This document shows, one piece after another, positions 12,001 to 18,000 of a stretch of 58,510 bases of DNA. Source of the DNA: Acaryochloridaceae cyanobacterium VAR_48_metabat_390. Its GTDB lineage: Bacteria; Cyanobacteriota; Cyanobacteriia; Thermosynechococcales; Thermosynechococcaceae. The stretch spans positions 1 through 58,510 of the forward strand of contig JANPLU010000036.1 of NCBI GenBank assembly GCA_031422435.1. The letters run 5' to 3'. Position 1 is the stretch's first letter. Every line of letters begins with the position of its first letter. A program made the position numbers.

Positions 12001-15000
12001 GGAGGGATGGTTATGCGCCACAATCACCCGCGTTGCGCCTTGACGAATCACTTCTCTAAAAATATCGCGGGGGTGAGCAATGGTTTCGGTAGCGGTGCCG
12101 ATGCTGATAACTTGAGTGCCAAGGAGCCGATGTTTAATATCTAGCAGCAGGACGGCAAAGCGCTCTTGGGTTTGCCACATCAGCTGGTTAGCAAGTAGAG
12201 CAGCGGCAGCTTCTGGGTTTTCAATGAGGGTGGGGGCATCGGGAAGAGTGCTAAAGGCACGTTTCCCCAGCTCAATCGCTGCAACAATGGCGGTCGCCTT
12301 CGCAGGGCCAATACCAGGAATTTCCATGAGTTCCGAGACGTGGATATTGCGTAGAACGTTGAGGGGGTTGCGCTGATGTTGACCAAGCTGCTGCAATAAG
12401 TATTGGCCTAGCCCCACGGCAGACAGTTTGCCAGGGCCTTGCCCAGTGCCCAGCAAAATGGCAATCAGTTCGGCCTCAGTGAGAGTATGAGACCCTTGGT
12501 TCATGAGGCGTTCACGGGGGCGATCGCCCAGAGGTAGGTCAGCAACGCGCAGAGTATAGGACATGGATGTATGGGCAAGGGTTCTACATTCAGATTTCCC
12601 AGAAATAGCCTAAGCGCGATCTATGGACACGAAAACCATAGTGATGAGCAACCGACCTTAGCAAACCCCAGATCCCGCTACAAAACTTCTACAATGCCTC
12701 GATAGCCATCCACACGTACTTTTTGCCCATTTTTGAGACGTTGGGTTGCCTGGGAAATATCCATCACGGCCGGAATGCCGTATTCGCGGGCAATAATGGC
12801 TCCGTGGGAGAGTCTACCGCCCACTTCTGCCACAATGCCACCCACCTGAGCTAACACAGGCGACCAGCCAGCATCGGTGTAGGGTACCACCAAGATAGTT
12901 TGGCGAGAGAGCGAGGTTGGGATCTGACGGAGCGATCGCAGCACCTGCACCGTCCCTTCTACAATGCCAGGGCTAGCGCCAATCCCGTACAGAGATCCGG
13001 CGGCAGGGGTAGGATTTTGCAGAACGCTGAGGGGCGGGGGCATTCCATATACGACCGTAGGCACTCCCGTAAGTTCCTGAGCAAGTTCAAACTCGCGGCT
13101 TCGCGCCACAACCTGTTGAGATAGCCTTGTCTTGAGCGTAGGAGAGGGCTGTGTGACCCACTCACGAAGTTCACTAAGGGTGAGAAAAAAAATATCGCCT
13201 GTCTGCTGAAGCAGCCCTTGAGAGAGCGCATCTTGTTCTAAGGCCAGCAACGCATAGCGCAACTCTGCCAACAAACGGCTGTAGACTTCGGCAACCTGAC
13301 CTTTCAGGGTTAACCGCTTTTGTACAATTCGAGTGACTAAACCTTGGCGCTTTGCTAGCGCTGGTGCTGGCGTAGACCCAAGATTTTGCAAGAGTAGCCA
13401 GACGGGCTGCGGATCTTCTTTCCAGGTTGGGATAGAAATGTCAGTGGCAACATCGCTCAAGTAACCATACTGCGCTAAGAACGCTTCCATCTCAGGTTGA
13501 AGAGATTCAGCATTGAGGGTGGATGAGTGATGCGAGGCAAGATTATGGAGTGATCGCAGTGCTGCCATCTCCGGCAACACAGACGTATCGAGGGCAGCAT
13601 CTTCAACCCGCCAGAGCTTTTGCCGCACCGCAGCGCTGATGGGTGCCAAAATGCTAAAAAATGTGGCGCTATGCAAGGCCGAAAGCAGTGCGTCAATCCG
13701 CTCTAGGATGGCTGTGGGGCTTGACAAAGAAGGCTGTGTAGCAATCTCCAATAGCGGGGAAAAGGCCGTGCGGTTTTGTTGGCGAAAGGCACTGGGCAAT
13801 GTCCATTCTTGAAGCAGCAGCTTTGTTAGCCCTGGTAAGGTTTTAAGCATTGCCACAGGCGAAGGGCGACCCATTGGGGCACCCCGCGTCAAAAATTCTA
13901 GACTTTCAGCCGGTAGACCCATCCGACGAAAGAGCTGACCGAGCAGCGTTACATTAAAGTAGGCGTGACCGTAGTGCAGTGTTGCAAGCTCCTGCACCTT
14001 AAACGGATCAGAGCGTCCACCTAAAATAGATTTAAATAAATCTGCCCAAACGCTGCAGGTCAGCGGCTGGTTGATAGACCAGGTGAGAGGCCGAATTACC
14101 CCAGGAATTACCTCCGCCGCAATGCGACGAGTCCAGATGGGCAGTAGCGTGGTAATAGTTCGCGTTTGAAGCACCCAGAGCGTTGTGCCGTCGTAGGTCC
14201 ACTCCATGTCTTGAGGAACGCCGTGGTACCGTGCTTCTAGATCTCGAACCAGGACTGCAACCCGCTCAATAATCTCTGCCGGAATCTGGCCTGCTTCTCC
14301 CGTAATCACCCCTTTAAACACCCCATTGGCAGCCGTGCCTAGCGCTGGGATTGTGACTAAATACCGCTCTGGCGTAACGTGACCTGACACAACATTGGTG
14401 GCAAGCCCTAGCAACCCTTCGATCGCTACCGCCTCCCCATCCCCAGAAGATGGGTCACGGCTAAAGGCCACGCCCGAATATTGCCCCTGGATTTGGCGCT
14501 GCACAATCACTGCCATTCCCCCTTCCGCAACGCCTCGACTTTGACGATACTGAGCGGCGACGGGGTCATCGTAGCAGTCTTGGCACTGGGCGATCGCCCG
14601 TCTTAACCCTTCCCTTGAGGTCACGTCTAACACCGTTTGGTACTGCCCCGCCGCTGAAGCCTGATTGGAGTCTTCTCCCATAGCAGAAGACCGCACCACC
14701 CAAGGCTGCTCCACGCTCGGATGGATGGCCTTAATTAACGGCTCTGCGTCATCGCCTGGGGGCAATACCCACCCCTCTGGTACTGAGAAGCCCCAGCGGA
14801 TAAGCTGTGCTAAGGTTGCGGCCTTTTGACCCACTTTCTCTGCAAGTAAAGGCTGATTTAAAGACACCAAACCGCTAGTTCCTCCCAAAAGCTCAAATGC
14901 ACCCTGACTTTCTGTATTGGCCTGTCCCGCCGGAAGCGCTAGGTCTTCGGGGCGTTGAGTGTAGACCCAAGCCAACAGAGCAGAGAGGGCGATCGCCATC

Positions 15001-18000
15001 AGAGTCTCAGCTAAGTCCTGCCGCAGCAGCGCAATCACAATGGGCAATAACATCAACGCCAGCCAGCGAATTTTCCGTCGCTCTGGCACCACCGCTGTCA
15101 TGCCCCCACTCACCAAAAACATGCTCAGCGCCACTCGCCAGTCGTAGACCGTCACGCCCCACACGACATTGGTGGTACCGACCCCACGCCCAAGCCAAAA
15201 GCGACCCGCCACTAGCGCCACCAGTGCCGCCAGTTCTAATGTCGGATTGGGTGGCAGCAGCGCCCGCACCCCCAATACGCATCCAATTCCTTTCGCCGCC
15301 TCTGCCAACACCGAACATACGCCTACACCAGTCCCACCGTGGTAGAACGCCGCAGATACGCCAATGTTGCCTGTGCCCAAATCCTTGAGATTTTGGCCTG
15401 TCAGACCGCGCACAATCCAAGCCGTAATTGGCATTCCCCCAATGAGTGGACAGCCTACCACCAGAAACAGAATGCCCCACCCATCGTTAATAGATATCAA
15501 GGCTAAGACTCTCCCCGTTGCCATGCAGTAATAGGCGAAATGCGTGGGGGCCAGAGAAGCTTTAGGTCAGACGCATTAAACGGATCTTGAACCACAGCAG
15601 CCGACCCTTCCCCCTGCCAAGACTTTGCCCAGATGCTGCCCTGGACAAGGGCAGAAGATTTAACGATGGAGGTGGGCGCAACTAGGGCAAGGTAAAGCGG
15701 GGCACTGCTTTCTCCCTTAAGGCTAACTGCATGGGCAGGTTCGGCGGGAGCCTGTGGGGGGTAAACGTAAAGCTGAGTTCGCATAGAGGATGGCGTACCT
15801 TCTTGCTCAATTGCAGGAGTGGCTTCCTTCCCTGGTTCTTTATTCCCTGCTAAAGTTACTGGCCCGTGGGCATAGATGATGAGCGTTGAGCCAGAAGCCA
15901 GTCGAATTCTGCCGCCCCCTGTGAGGGTCAGGCCACCGTCTAGATTCAGCACTACTGTTTCTGACCCAGTTCCTACCGTCAAAACGGATGAGGAATTTGT
16001 GAGGTTAATGGACTGCCCATTCTTGGCCTGTATGCGATAGGTCAAAATGCTGTTGCTTGAATTAGTTGAGCCTGGTTGACTGGGATTGGGTAAGGTTTTA
16101 GTTTGATCTCCCAGAGCTGAAATGATTGAGATCTTAGGCAGTAGCATGGATGATGAATCATTGCCCTCAGGAGATAGCTCAGGAAAATTGATCGCCGAAA
16201 TTGTTTGATAGGCGTAGGGATTTTGGATCCGGCTTTGAAGCTGCTGGACGGGCTGAGTGGAGGCAGCATCGCCTGAACAAGTAGAGTCGCGCACATAGGT
16301 CAGAATCTGTGCTGTATCGGATGCACTTGCCGTTTGGTTCTGCTTAATCCAAAGTCCAGGCAAATCGCCTAATCCTGGATTGCGAGTGACGTTGAAGTTG
16401 ACCTTGAGCTGAGCCGTCGCGGTGCGGATCGCATCATCTGGATTGATTCGCCCTTGCACGATCAGGGTTCCGGTGCCGAGCGTCGGGTTAGCGACATCGG
16501 GCTGATACTGATAGCTCACTAACCGAAACTGTCCATCTGCTGGGTCGGCAGTAGCGTTACTCCACTGCTGGGTAGCGTAGGACTGAATGAGAGCGATGGG
16601 TTGATTGGGGTCGGTACTGCAAGGGTTTAGCGCGACGTTGGGCAAGTTAGACCAGGAAGCAGCACTGCCACAGGAGAAGCTGAGCGCGCTATCAGAACAG
16701 GCCGTTGCTAAAGGTTTGTAGCGATTAAAGAGTGCTTGAAACTGGGTAACGCCGTGTTCCGCAACCGCCACACTGCGCGCATTGGCTTTCTGGGCGATCG
16801 CCGAAATCCGATTTTGGCTGGAGCGCTCAATCATCATGATGCCCAGCAAAATAGTGATGACCCCCACGCCCAAAACAACGGGTAAAACAAACCCTTTCTC
16901 TGAAGAAGTTGCAGTCATTAAAGCGCGTGTTGAGTTGCGAAAATGCATCGCTGCCATAACCTCTTGGGAATGCCGCTGAGCCTTACCATATCAAGTTGGC
17001 TTTAGCCCTGTCTATGGCAGTCGCTCCCGCTACGTCCTAGCTATAGTAGGGCAAAACCTCATCCCAGTTCGGCCTTTCGCCTTTGTGCCAAGCGTGCCAT
17101 CCTAACGTCAGTAAAGCGTTGGCAAGCAGTTGTGGGTCAATGGCATTCTCCATCTGAATCACCTGATCAATCCCTGAAGTAGATGACACTAGATGATTCC
17201 ACGCTTGCTCAGGTAAAAGCTGATCGGCAGCAACCACATTCACCAAAACTTCGGCCGCCTGGATCTGATAAATTGCGCCATAGACATTACCCTGCTGACC
17301 CGCCTGACTGACGGCAACCGTCCAGGTTTTGGCGTTAAGCGGCTCGGCAGCAACCCATGCGGCGATCGCCAGATTTGAAAAGCCAAACAAAGGTAGGCGA
17401 AGCTGCTGCGCCAAGGTACGCGCGGTTACAACCCCAATGCGGATTCCGGTAAAGCTGCCAGGGCCTTTAAGTACGGCAATCCAGGCGAGATCTGTCCACC
17501 GCTGGGGCACCATAAAATCTTGGAGCAGCGGATGCAGTTGGGTCGAGATCGCTCGCTCTAGAAACCAAGACTGGTAGCGATTAGACCCTGACGGCTGACC
17601 CAGCGCCAGGGTTAAAGCGGCAGTGGTGGTATCTAGCCCAAGGCCATAGAAATGCTCAACGGAATCAAGATTTAACGTCATTACACTGCACAAATATGCT
17701 TAAAGCGCCGTCTTTTAGACAACAAAGATCAATCCATTTTTACCGAGAATAGGAATATTGCCCTAAAAATGTTCAATAACCGCTCAAAAAAAGCCTGTTT
17801 GGCACATTCGAGTCACATTTTCCAAAATAGCGCATCGTCCACTAAGATTTATGTAGAGTCTGAGAATATGTAACTTTACACTTATACCTGTTCTATGGAT
17901 TTCAGGTAAATCTATGAGCTGCAGTGTGTTCAAAGCGTTTTGAGCCATGTTAGTTAAGTTCTGCTTCTCCATTTCTAAAAGATCGTTATTTTCTAACCCA

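What a model noticed while it worked through the whole genome (the two positions that open the first line are those of the whole stretch)
12678..15524. PlsY-like membrane domain fused to a rifampicin-phosphotransferase-type (PEP-synthase-like) kinase, conserved across Cya [...]
g01012 (948 aa) joins an N-terminal PlsY-like (G3P_acyltransf) membrane domain (res 25-189) to a complete ATP-grasp / Rph_4th / swivel-His phosphotransferase of the rifampicin-phosphotransferase and PEP-synthase type (res 272-943), while canonical PlsX (g01371) and PlsY (g03574) are encoded elsewhere. Boldest reading: the kinase half makes an acyl-phosphate (or another phosphorylated lipid head) from ATP at the membrane and hands it to the PlsY-like half, a one-polypeptide, ACP-independent fatty-acid salvage route analogous to FakAB + PlsY of Firmicutes. 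New if true: an undescribed lipid enzyme present in most cyanobacteria and a new substrate class for Rph/PpsA-like phosphotransferases.
Evidence so far: pfam.tsv: G3P_acyltransf E 1.2e-15 (hmm 2-158 of 164), PPDK_N E 2.6e-37, PEP-utilizers E 1.5e-23; relatives.tsv adds Rph_4th at mark 0. Best Swiss-Prot hits are Rph of Streptomyces, Listeria, Bacillus. Sequence: PlsY motif-1-like GTGNIGVSAA; swivel motif GGRLSHGAIIAREYGIP with the His kept. search_genomes call 78 (60 other genomes of the phylum): one-piece full-length matches (query ~10-948, 50-53% id, ORFs 956-1,023 aa) in 13 genomes and matches in 2-3 pieces inside one open frame of 976-1,056 aa in 5 more, i.e. 18 of the 20 'same class' genomes; only partial kinase-half matches (E 2e-35 or weaker) in the 40 genomes marked 'same phylum'. 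Paper search call 77: 1 unrelated paper.
(Added by a program. Inside this text positions count along the whole contig: contig position 1 is position 1 of the stretch shown here. "Call 12" and the like, gene names such as g00115 and contig names such as C1 are that model's own, and its searches are not shown. The text may have been shortened before it was handed on; [...] marks where a part breaks off. The agent that wrote the report below was given it as the finding of a first reader that could run no searches.)

Follow-up and report, generated by a model that had tools for sequence, protein, structure and literature searches.

The report
Remodelled PlsY domain fused to dikinase
This cyanobacterial gene joins an ATP-driven phosphate-relay enzyme to a membrane domain that has the fold of the lipid enzyme PlsY but has lost PlsY's glycerol-phosphate site; the two parts travel together in bacteria and archaea and probably activate and modify an unknown membrane lipid.

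Summary
One intact 948-aa ORF joins a full PlsY fold (Z 16.8) to an RPH-type dikinase with its ATP-site residues and swivel His907 intact. It is not in all cyanobacteria: 192 of 301 genomes match, and several whole families have none. It is not confined to them either: fusions occur in Thermotogota and Asgard archaea. In 59 metagenome loci found with kinase motifs alone, 42 carry a PlsY-like gene (3 fused, 32 adjacent, 7 nearby).

Of five PlsY residues that bind G3P or catalyse, 66 of 70 cyanobacterial copies keep none; His177 aligns to Tyr, a change that leaves 0.03% activity in Aquifex PlsY. The domain is no mere anchor either: dN/dS matches the kinase half, and invariant polar residues ring the old site, whose mouth has turned from basic to acidic.

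Best reading (0.4): the kinase phosphorylates a lipophilic substrate, and the PlsY fold takes the product and transfers it to a non-G3P, possibly amine, acceptor. The substrate is unknown and no paper was found. This scan has reported the same family on other genomes at least eight times.

The parts
12678..15524 (-). Whole fusion gene, 948 aa (P0001); the true start may be the TTG at 15500
14880..15485 (-). PlsY-fold seven-helix membrane domain (res ~14-215). G3P clamp and His base replaced (T51, Y61, V115, Y188, R191); Gly hole kept (G114, G116); new near-invariant residues E75, K78, R108, T118, N119, W122, D194
14145..14873 (-). ATP-grasp domain (res ~218-460) with K234, R278 (= RPH R117), T297 (= RPH T136), E441, Q453, R455
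13020..14141 (-). RPH-type central substrate-binding domain (res ~462-835; Rph_4th); K741/G742 at the inferred place of RPH R666/E667
12681..12998 (-). Swivel phosphohistidine domain (res ~843-948), H907 in 73 of 73 cyanobacterial and 120 of 120 other rows
15503..16957 (-). Upstream neighbour, 484 aa, prepilin-like N-terminus, weak DUF7305 (E 0.0026). Probably not part of the system: adjacent in only 10 of 81 cyanobacterial loci, most of them the closest relatives
11833..12564 (-). Downstream neighbour radC (243 aa); no sign of a functional link

Best explanation
A membrane-bound 'activate and hand over' module. Step 1, well supported by homology: the ATP-grasp domain phosphorylates His907, releasing AMP and Pi, and the swivel domain carries the phosphate to the central domain as in RPH. 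Step 2, inferred: the acceptor is a lipophilic molecule X (a fatty acid or other lipophilic acid or alcohol), giving X-phosphate. Step 3, inferred: X-phosphate enters the PlsY-fold domain, which keeps the hydrophobic groove and the Gly-x-Gly backbone phosphate hole but not the G3P clamp. X is transferred to an acceptor that carries no phosphate. The cytoplasmic mouth has changed from basic (R45, K104, R183) to acidic (E75, D193/D194), so an amine or other cationic acceptor is the likeliest. The product would be an accessory lipid or lipid conjugate, not bulk phosphatidic acid.
For: Kinase residues: R278 and T297 align to RPH R117 and T136, and H907 to the catalytic His (roles from PMC4844700 passages). 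They are 97-100% conserved in 73 cyanobacterial and 120 other rows, with T or S at 297. The central domain has 127 of 374 columns at 90% or more, with residues shared across phyla. PlsY half: whole fold; G103 and G105 columns kept in 69 and 70 of 70 cyanobacterial rows, 25 and 28 of 29 type A, 34 and 34 of 34 type B. Of S35, R45, K104, H177 and N180, 66 of 70 cyanobacterial rows keep none and 4 keep one; 7 of 9 canonical controls keep all five; the R183 column is Asp in 69 of 70. dN/dS 0.06-0.11 in the PlsY half against 0.08-0.11 in the kinase half over 4 pairs. Coupling: 42 of 59 kinase-seeded metagenome loci hold a PlsY-like gene; only 2 lack one with both flanks of 1.5 kb or more (41 of 59 with a profile built from sequences outside those loci). 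0 of 6 more distant RPH-type loci have one. The kinase clade pairs with two different G3P-site-less PlsY paralogues, interleaved on the tree (8 changes; type B fold Z 23.3, rmsd 2.8, 196 aligned). Precedent for phosphorylation as activation before condensation: HapC/PigC (PMC13534948 passages). A kinase of this clade comes from Thorarchaeota SMTZ1-83, for which PMC6431249 lists a PlsY while finding no archaeal PlsX, so there is no canonical acyl-phosphate source there.
Against: No substrate evidence of any kind. The acyl-phosphate site is altered too: His92 is Arg in 70 of 70 cyanobacterial rows (H92K leaves 2% activity in Aquifex PlsY), Gly102 is deleted in 69 of 70, and Thr41 is Ala in 22 of 29 non-cyanobacterial type A rows (T41A leaves 4.75%). 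No general base is evident in the PlsY-like half. Cyanobacterial copies have Gly or Ala, not Glu, at the inferred RPH Glu667 position, and E667A abolishes the second transfer in RPH; that register is extrapolated from an anchor 15 residues away. The characterised relatives in the passages read act on hydroxyls, phenols or an aldehyde, not carboxylates. pTM 0.62 gives no confident contact between the halves. Cyanobacterial loci have no conserved operon.
Confidence: 0.4

Rival explanations
1. Membrane lipid kinase only. The PlsY fold is non-catalytic: it binds and presents a membrane-embedded alcohol or acid, or holds the phosphorylated product, and the phosphorylated lipid is the end product. 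In one version the swivel His docks directly on the acidic mouth of the PlsY fold.
For: Loss of every catalytic and G3P residue. Only backbone-hole glycines and the D/E59 and K62 columns are common to both partner types. RPH and HpeHI products are end-point phosphomonoesters. Partner types A and B are exchanged on the kinase tree, which suits a loosely specified role.
Against: The central domain is itself a strongly conserved acceptor site, so a second presenting domain looks redundant. Loci L151 (fused A plus adjacent B) and L144 (two B genes) carry two PlsY-like units.
Confidence: 0.28
2. Fatty-acid kinase feeding the canonical pathway: the enzyme makes acyl-phosphate from free fatty acid at the membrane and releases it to the genome's ordinary PlsY or PlsX. 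This is the workable form of the first reader's salvage idea.
For: Dikinase chemistry yields enough energy for an acyl-phosphate (established knowledge, PEP synthase). No DegV/FakB was found in the genome. Part of the acyl-phosphate hole is kept, and T41 is Ser in 62 of 70 cyanobacterial rows.
Against: The review PMC10114076 gives Aas as the only reported activator of free fatty acids in cyanobacteria (passages), and G000 has two long-chain acyl-ligase-like genes (not shown to be Aas). Archaeal members would have no PlsX. Distribution does not follow the polyunsaturated-fatty-acid desaturase or a linked alpha/beta hydrolase.
Confidence: 0.12
3. Detoxification module: it phosphorylates or conjugates a membrane-active toxic compound (xenobiotic, photosensitiser or oxidised lipid) before export.
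For: RPH is the closest solved relative. An FtsX/MacB-type permease lies on the same strand in 17 of 59 non-cyanobacterial loci. A membrane-anchored ferrochelatase-like gene is in 8 of 59. Photolyase with heliorhodopsin, MsrAB and PUCC each occur in single loci.
Against: In cyanobacteria it is nearly always single-copy, forms one clade (support 100) and has no linked exporter. NF041857 score is 220 against a cut-off of 999. Structural identity to RPH-Lm is 19-26%, against more than 42% for clade A. The ferrochelatase-like gene has no match in G000.
Confidence: 0.12
4. One reading: one polypeptide makes acyl-phosphate and acylates G3P to lysophosphatidic acid.
For: PlsY fold and a Pfam hit above cut-off; the fusion itself.
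Against: R45, K104, H177 and N180 are all replaced. In Aquifex PlsY R45A, K104A, N180A and H177Y leave 1.1, 7.4, 4.6 and 0.03% activity. No TIGR00023 hit at E 0.001 or better, while the genome's own PlsY scores 193 against a cut-off of 137.
Confidence: 0.04
5. The PlsY-like half is a decayed membrane anchor for a soluble-substrate dikinase.
For: Some divergent copies have eroded motifs (P0144, P0171). Helices 5-7 have only 9 of 70 columns at 90% or more.
Against: 44 of 104 columns at 90% or more in residues 24-127, many of them polar and at the old active site; dN/dS equal to the kinase half. Split genes stay adjacent, which a covalent anchor would not explain.
Confidence: 0.04

Closest known systems
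Rifampin phosphotransferase RPH-Lm (Listeria monocytogenes; PDB 5FBS/5FBT/5FBU/5HV1-3; NF041857)
   Same: Domain order ATP-grasp / central substrate domain / C-terminal swivel His; R117, T136 and His825 equivalents; Z 31.4 over 620 residues.
   Different: Extra seven-helix PlsY-fold domain; shorter central domain with 19-26% structural identity; K/G in place of the R666/E667 pair in cyanobacterial copies (inferred register); 220 bits against a cut-off of 999.
PlsY, acyl-phosphate:glycerol-3-phosphate acyltransferase (Aquifex aeolicus; PDB 5XJ5-5XJ9; TIGR00023)
   Same: Whole fold (Z 16.8, rmsd 3.3, 180 aligned); motif-1 Gly-x-Gly-Asn, K62 column and Gly103/Gly105 hole kept.
   Different: G3P clamp (S35, R45, K104, N180), S142 and His177 replaced; His92 is Arg; loop 3 is shorter; R183 is Asp; fused or coupled to a dikinase; a canonical plsY is encoded elsewhere.
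Prodiginine ligases PigC / RedH / HapC
   Same: RPH-type architecture; phosphorylation activates a substrate for a following condensation (PMC13534948 passages).
   Different: No PlsY-like domain; scores 206 of 1300 and 198 of 1350; no pyrrole biosynthesis genes seen nearby.
Two-component aromatic dikinases HpeHI, CreHI, PpsAB
   Same: Same ATP-grasp, substrate and swivel modules acting on small hydrophobic hydroxyls (PMC12167813 passages; HpeI 9goj Z 17.8).
   Different: Soluble, split in two chains, sit in catabolic pathways; no membrane partner.
Fatty acid kinase FakAB of Firmicutes
   Same: Functional analogy only, if the product is an acyl-phosphate.
   Different: No homology: no Dak2 or DegV hit in this protein and no DegV found in the genome.

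Membership tests
PlsY (G3P acyltransferase) | Seven-helix PlsY fold | tested here: met
   VIA Z 16.8, rmsd 3.3, 180 aligned to 5xj7, model 14-215; Pfam 56.6 bits, cut-off 24.1
PlsY (G3P acyltransferase) | G3P phosphate clamp S35, R45, K104, N180 | tested here: not met
   P0001 has T51, Y61, V115, R191; 66 of 70 cyanobacterial rows keep none of the five clamp/base residues, against all five in 7 of 9 canonical controls (roles)
PlsY (G3P acyltransferase) | Catalytic His177 | tested here: not met
   Column is Tyr in 63 of 70; any His within 4 residues in 4 of 70, against 9 of 9 controls; H177Y leaves 0.03% activity. Sequence alignment only; no model coordinates were available
PlsY (G3P acyltransferase) | Acyl-phosphate hole (backbone 104-107, His92, Ala40/Thr41) | tested here: inconclusive
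   G103 and G105 kept and T41 is Ser, but H92 is Arg in 70 of 70 and G102 is deleted in 69 of 70
PlsY (G3P acyltransferase) | TIGR00023 equivalog score of 137.2 or more | tested here: not met
   No hit at E 0.001 or better for residues 1-213; the genome's own PlsY scores 193.3
PlsY (G3P acyltransferase) | Forms lysophosphatidic acid from acyl-phosphate and G3P | not testable with these tools
   needs an enzyme assay
RPH-type small-molecule dikinase superfamily | ATP-grasp, central substrate domain, C-terminal swivel His in that order | tested here: met
RPH-type small-molecule dikinase superfamily | ATP-site Arg117 and Thr136 and catalytic His825 equivalents | tested here: met
   R278, T297, H907 in the pairwise alignment; conservation. 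K234 = Lys22 is inferred from motif position only
RPH-type small-molecule dikinase superfamily | Arg666-Glu667 pair for the second phosphotransfer | tested here: inconclusive
   Non-cyanobacterial rows R 94% / E 89%; cyanobacterial rows K 92% / G 88% in the same columns; register extrapolated from the 756/681 anchor
Rph, rifamycin-inactivating phosphotransferase (clade A) | NF041857 score of 999 or more; over 42% identity to RPH-Lm | tested here: not met
   219.8 bits; 19-26% identity in structural alignments; threshold from PMC4844700
Rph, rifamycin-inactivating phosphotransferase (clade A) | Phosphorylates rifampicin; RIF-binding sequence blocks | not tested
   the twelve blocks are in a figure that could not be seen; activity needs an assay
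PEP synthase / PPDK | C-terminal pyruvate-binding barrel (PF02896) with a central His domain | tested here: not met
   His domain is C-terminal; no PF02896 match in the genome, 14 of 14 controls ring; TIGR01418 166 against 740
PigC/RedH prodiginine ligases | NF052631 / NF052632 cut-offs | tested here: not met
   206.1 of 1300 and 198.5 of 1350
FakAB fatty acid kinase | Dak2 kinase plus DegV carrier | tested here: not met
   no such Pfam hit in P0001 at E 0.1; DegV not found in G000, 6 of 14 controls ring; Dak2 was not searched genome-wide

The most novel reading that the evidence does not exclude
A self-contained, ACP- and CoA-independent lipid ligase found in two domains of life. The dikinase makes an acyl-phosphate from a free lipophilic acid, and the remodelled PlsY fold, now with an acidic mouth, transfers the acyl group to an amine or non-phosphorylated alcohol. 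The product would be an undescribed amide or ester lipid of most filamentous and large-genome cyanobacteria, Chloroflexota and Asgard archaea. Some 'PlsY' genes cited as bacterial-type lipid synthesis in Asgard genomes would then be this partner, not G3P acyltransferases.
Probability: 0.28. Interest if true: 0.85.

Novelty: new variant of a known kind. Interest (0 to 1): 0.62.

Why it matters
About two thirds of the cyanobacterial genomes sampled carry this 950-1050-aa protein. It is labelled 'glycerol-3-phosphate acyltransferase' or 'pyruvate, water dikinase', and it can be neither, so metabolic models and lipid-pathway surveys inherit the error. It would be a second chemistry for the PlsY fold and a membrane-coupled branch of the RPH dikinase family. 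It makes a concrete question testable: one knockout with lipidomics, and one ATP-to-AMP screen with lipids, could name the substrate. It also bears on the 'lipid divide' debate, because at least some archaeal PlsY homologues may be this G3P-site-less partner.

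Tried and rejected
(1) Operon clues in cyanobacteria: ORF clustering of 81 loci gave only lineage-local neighbours; rejected. 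(2) The 484-aa neighbour as partner: upstream, prepilin-like, adjacent in 10 of 81 loci; rejected. (3) An alpha/beta hydrolase seen beside 2 non-cyanobacterial loci has a G000 homologue, but it is present in f5 29/29, f20 8/8 and g3 13/13, where the fusion was not found (against 13); rejected. (4) Link to polyunsaturated fatty acids: the DesA-like desaturase (my label from sequence, no family cut-off met) is in f5 29/29 (fusion 0/29) and in only f11 2/11 and f3 1/5 (fusion 11/11 and 5/5); rejected. (5) Stand-in for the PEP synthase that G000 seems to lack: no pyruvate barrel, and many carriers also have 800-900-aa PEP-synthase-like ORFs; rejected. (6) Recalled precedent of 25-hydroxysteroid kinase as an RPH relative: the paper has no 'dikinase' and gives no such link in the passages seen; dropped. 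(7) Search for longer fusions of the type B PlsY-like protein: none at E 0.001 among 8000 candidates, weak evidence. (8) Atlas look-alikes: central domain 0.95 to Rph_4th clusters; N-domain best 0.82, a lead only. (9) Complex prediction of a natural split pair (L109 kinase plus its PlsY-like neighbour) was never run because the queue was full, so binding between the halves is untested. (10) The maximum-likelihood tree did not finish; the tree cited is FastTree with long-branch warnings.

Full report
OBSERVATION. Window 12678-15524 (-) is one open frame of 948 codons. Pfam finds G3P_acyltransf at 25-189 (E 4.5e-15), PPDK_N at 272-459 (E 1.7e-38) and PEP-utilizers at 874-943 (E 3.2e-23); Rph_4th is in the precomputed list. 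The best NCBIfam hits (PRK06241, Rph, PigC, RedH) are all far below their cut-offs. An AlphaFold2 model from 113 homologues (pLDDT 84.1, pTM 0.62) matches RPH over residues 218-948 (5hv2, Z 31.4, 620 aligned, rmsd 19.0, i.e. a different domain arrangement) and PlsY over 14-215 (5xj7, Z 16.8, rmsd 3.3, 180 aligned). The genome (99.99% complete) has a canonical plsY and plsX elsewhere. The 484-aa neighbour is upstream, not downstream; the next gene downstream is radC. The 22-nt overlap vanishes if the start is the TTG at 15500.

DISTRIBUTION IN CYANOBACTERIA. 116 of the 120 best homologues carry all four Pfam families. Of 51 close loci from named records, 45 have all four parts in one ORF, 5 begin at a contig edge and 1 is in pieces. 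In an even draw of 301 class genomes at least 90% complete, 192 match at E 1e-20 or better; none was found in f2 (0/30), f5 (0/29), f20 (0/8), f6 (0/2), g3 (0/13) or g13 (0/11) (155 match rows were not listed). I re-examined 38 carriers picked for weak or multiple matches: 26 have one frame of 940 aa or more, and 12 are cut by contig ends, split or eroded. So the gene is common but dispensable. A natural split form exists: in L095 a 198-aa PlsY-like ORF is followed about 10 nt later by the kinase, and stand-alone products of 189-198 aa recur in one cluster. ORF clustering of 81 cyanobacterial loci shows no conserved operon.

OUTSIDE CYANOBACTERIA. A search of cluster representatives with the N-domain turned up a distant fusion, P0229. 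Its 120 best homologues are 22 fusions and 98 kinase-only proteins of 747-817 aa; named sources include Thermotogota, an Asgard archaeon, Anaerolineae, Dehalococcoidales and Thorarchaeota SMTZ1-83. A profile built from sequences outside these loci found a PlsY-like ORF in 41. A refined profile that includes them gives 3 fused, 32 within 400 nt, 7 elsewhere in the locus, 15 none with a flank under 1.5 kb, and 2 none with both flanks long. As a small control, 0 of 6 more distant RPH-type loci have one. The partners fall in two types: type A, to which the cyanobacterial domain belongs, and type B, stand-alone with an insertion in motif 1 (model pLDDT 93.5; PlsY 5xj5 Z 23.3, rmsd 2.8, 196 aligned, next hit Z 5.4). 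On a FastTree of 83 kinases the 13 cyanobacterial rows form one group (support 100), and A and B partners are interleaved (A needs 8 changes, at least 5 forced by starred branches; long-branch warnings apply). Recurrent neighbours: an FtsX/MacB-type permease on the same strand in 17 of 59 loci, a membrane-anchored ferrochelatase-like gene in 8, DUF6512 in 7 (137 of 177 candidate neighbours, plus a few added by hand, were scanned). None of the last two has a match in G000. Kin are not independent, so these counts are descriptive.

THE PLSY-LIKE HALF IS REMODELLED, NOT DECAYED. PMC5700162 (parts 2 and 3 of 9 read) assigns the G3P clamp to S35, R45, K104 and N180, the 2-OH contacts to S142 and H177, and the acyl-phosphate hole to backbone amides 104-107, H92, A40 and T41. 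I mapped these through the genome's own PlsY onto one alignment of 70 cyanobacterial, 29 other type A, 34 type B and 9 canonical rows. Of S35, R45, K104, H177 and N180, canonical rows keep all five in 7 of 9. Cyanobacterial rows keep none in 66 and one in 4; other type A keep at most one in 28 of 29; type B at most one in 34 of 34. H177 aligns to Tyr in 63 of 70, and H177Y leaves 0.03% activity. R183, on the phosphate exit path, is Asp in 69 of 70, the residue before it Asp in 67, and D59 is Glu in 70. G103 and G105 are kept in nearly all rows. H92 is Arg (70 of 70), Thr (22 of 29) or His (34 of 34). T41 is Ser in 62 of 70 but Ala in 22 of 29 other type A rows. So the G3P end of the site is gone and has turned acidic, while the acyl-phosphate end is partly kept. 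The domain is under the same constraint as the kinase: 44 of 104 columns at 90% or more in residues 24-127 (61 non-redundant rows), and dN/dS 0.056-0.112 against 0.077-0.108 over four pairs, two of them with dS above 1.2.

THE KINASE HALF LOOKS ACTIVE. R278, T297 and H907 align to RPH R117, T136 and the catalytic His (roles from PMC4844700, passages). They are 97-100% conserved in 73 cyanobacterial and 120 other rows. The central domain shares near-invariant residues across phyla (P479, W482, S483, N485, W493, Y522, N524, E543, D695, W701, Y748, R756). One oddity counts against a simple reading: the columns that extrapolate to RPH R666-E667 read R/E in non-cyanobacterial rows (94%, 89%) but K/G in cyanobacteria (92%, 88%). 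Cyanobacteria have their own near-invariant R737 and E652 (96% each), which may compensate; this is not tested. The RPH paper states that distant clades keep phosphotransfer but change substrate.

MECHANISM. Supported by homology: ATP-dependent phosphorylation of H907 and relay to the central domain. Shown by genomics: tight pairing with a G3P-site-less PlsY fold. Inferred: the product is a lipophilic phosphate that enters the PlsY fold and is transferred to a non-phosphorylated, perhaps amine, acceptor (0.40). HapC gives a precedent for activation by phosphorylation (PMC13534948, passages). An archaeal argument points the same way: PMC6431249 lists PlsY in Thorarchaeota SMTZ1-83 and finds no archaeal PlsX (passages), and PMC13400652 notes that these archaea seem to lack genes for G3P (passages). 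A kinase of this clade comes from SMTZ1-83, and its sister on the tree, L159, has a type B gene 15 nt downstream. I did not see the SMTZ1-83 locus itself; this lead came from earlier finding e1-5394216. Rivals: kinase only, with the PlsY fold as presenter or product holder (0.28); fatty-acid kinase feeding canonical PlsY/PlsX (0.12); detoxification with export (0.12); G3P acylation in one chain (0.04); anchor only (0.04). Against salvage, PMC10114076 (passages) names Aas as the only reported activator in cyanobacteria, G000 has two long-chain acyl-ligase-like genes, and two co-distribution tests failed. Binding between split halves could not be modelled.

LITERATURE. Four full-text searches aimed at this architecture listed 4, 1, 1 and 11 papers; none concerns it, judged by title and abstract start. 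Five further searches served background. PMC12167813 and PMC8449060 were seen as passages. The library holds only open-licence papers and preprints, and supplements were not searched, so a listing in a proteomic or transposon table could have been missed. The labels 'prepilin-like' and 'DesA-like' are my own reading of the sequences.

EARLIER FINDINGS. The scan has noted this family on other genomes at least eight times, with the same general reading. These are unchecked AI notes, not independent support; my reading was recorded before I saw them. Beyond the few lines shown of them, this report gives the residue counts per group, the basic-to-acidic switch, the two partner types on one kinase tree, the K/G change at the RPH Arg-Glu pair, equal dN/dS in both halves, and two rejected co-distribution hypotheses.

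VERDICT. A real, widespread, mislabelled and apparently uncharacterised enzyme built from two known folds. It works like an RPH-type dikinase and belongs to that superfamily by architecture. It is not an Rph, a PEP synthase or a PlsY by defining features. New variant of a known kind; interest 0.62.

Noticed in passing
G000, whole genome: No PEP-utilizers_C (PF02896) match, and the only PPDK_N match is this fusion, in a genome rated 99.99% complete: it seems to lack PEP synthase and PPDK.
   Followed up: partly
window 15503-16957 (-): 484-aa gene with a prepilin-like N-terminus and weak DUF7305; its stop lies 2 nt before a TTG that may be the fusion's real start. The canonical plsY locus L058 also has two pilin-like genes upstream.
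   Followed up: partly
L106, L112, L115, L117, L131, L138, L144, L151: A highly conserved ~420-aa protein with N-terminal membrane helices and a ferrochelatase/CbiX-like fold that keeps a His in the chelatase motif lies beside or near the kinase; below family cut-offs in most cases, function unknown.
   Followed up: partly
L151:1661-5457 and L144:1427-8130: Two PlsY-like units at one locus: a fused type A plus an adjacent type B (L151), or two type B genes (L144).
   Followed up: no
L127, L107, L110: Light and oxidative-stress neighbours in single loci: photolyase with heliorhodopsin (L127); fasciclin, CIA30, MsrAB and DUF1722 (L107); PUCC transporter (L110).
   Followed up: no
L023:4218-5198 (-) and 19 other loci: A ~326-aa gene lies divergently upstream of the fusion in 20 of 81 cyanobacterial loci, mostly Nostocales records; not annotated here.
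   Followed up: no
G010:C14 and G010:C47; G277, G229, G007, G212, G012, L051: One genome has two full copies (1009 and 972 aa frames); several others hold truncated, split or frameshifted copies, pointing to repeated loss.
   Followed up: no
G285:C17:151894-152451; G052:C201:13999-14340; G022:C9:217270-220389: Other long RPH-type or swivel-containing frames (1003 and 1331 aa) and a 1229-aa frame for the fusion itself suggest further domain additions.
   Followed up: no
P0173, P0186: Stand-alone ~204-aa PlsY-like proteins with the type A Glu and Asp-Asp signature that still keep a His near position 177; genomic context not seen.
   Followed up: no
window 18042-19199 (+), 17037-17693 (-), 10336-11772 (+): Ordinary neighbours: KaiB-domain histidine kinase (SasA-like, recalled label), tsaB, HlyD-type membrane fusion protein.
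   Followed up: no
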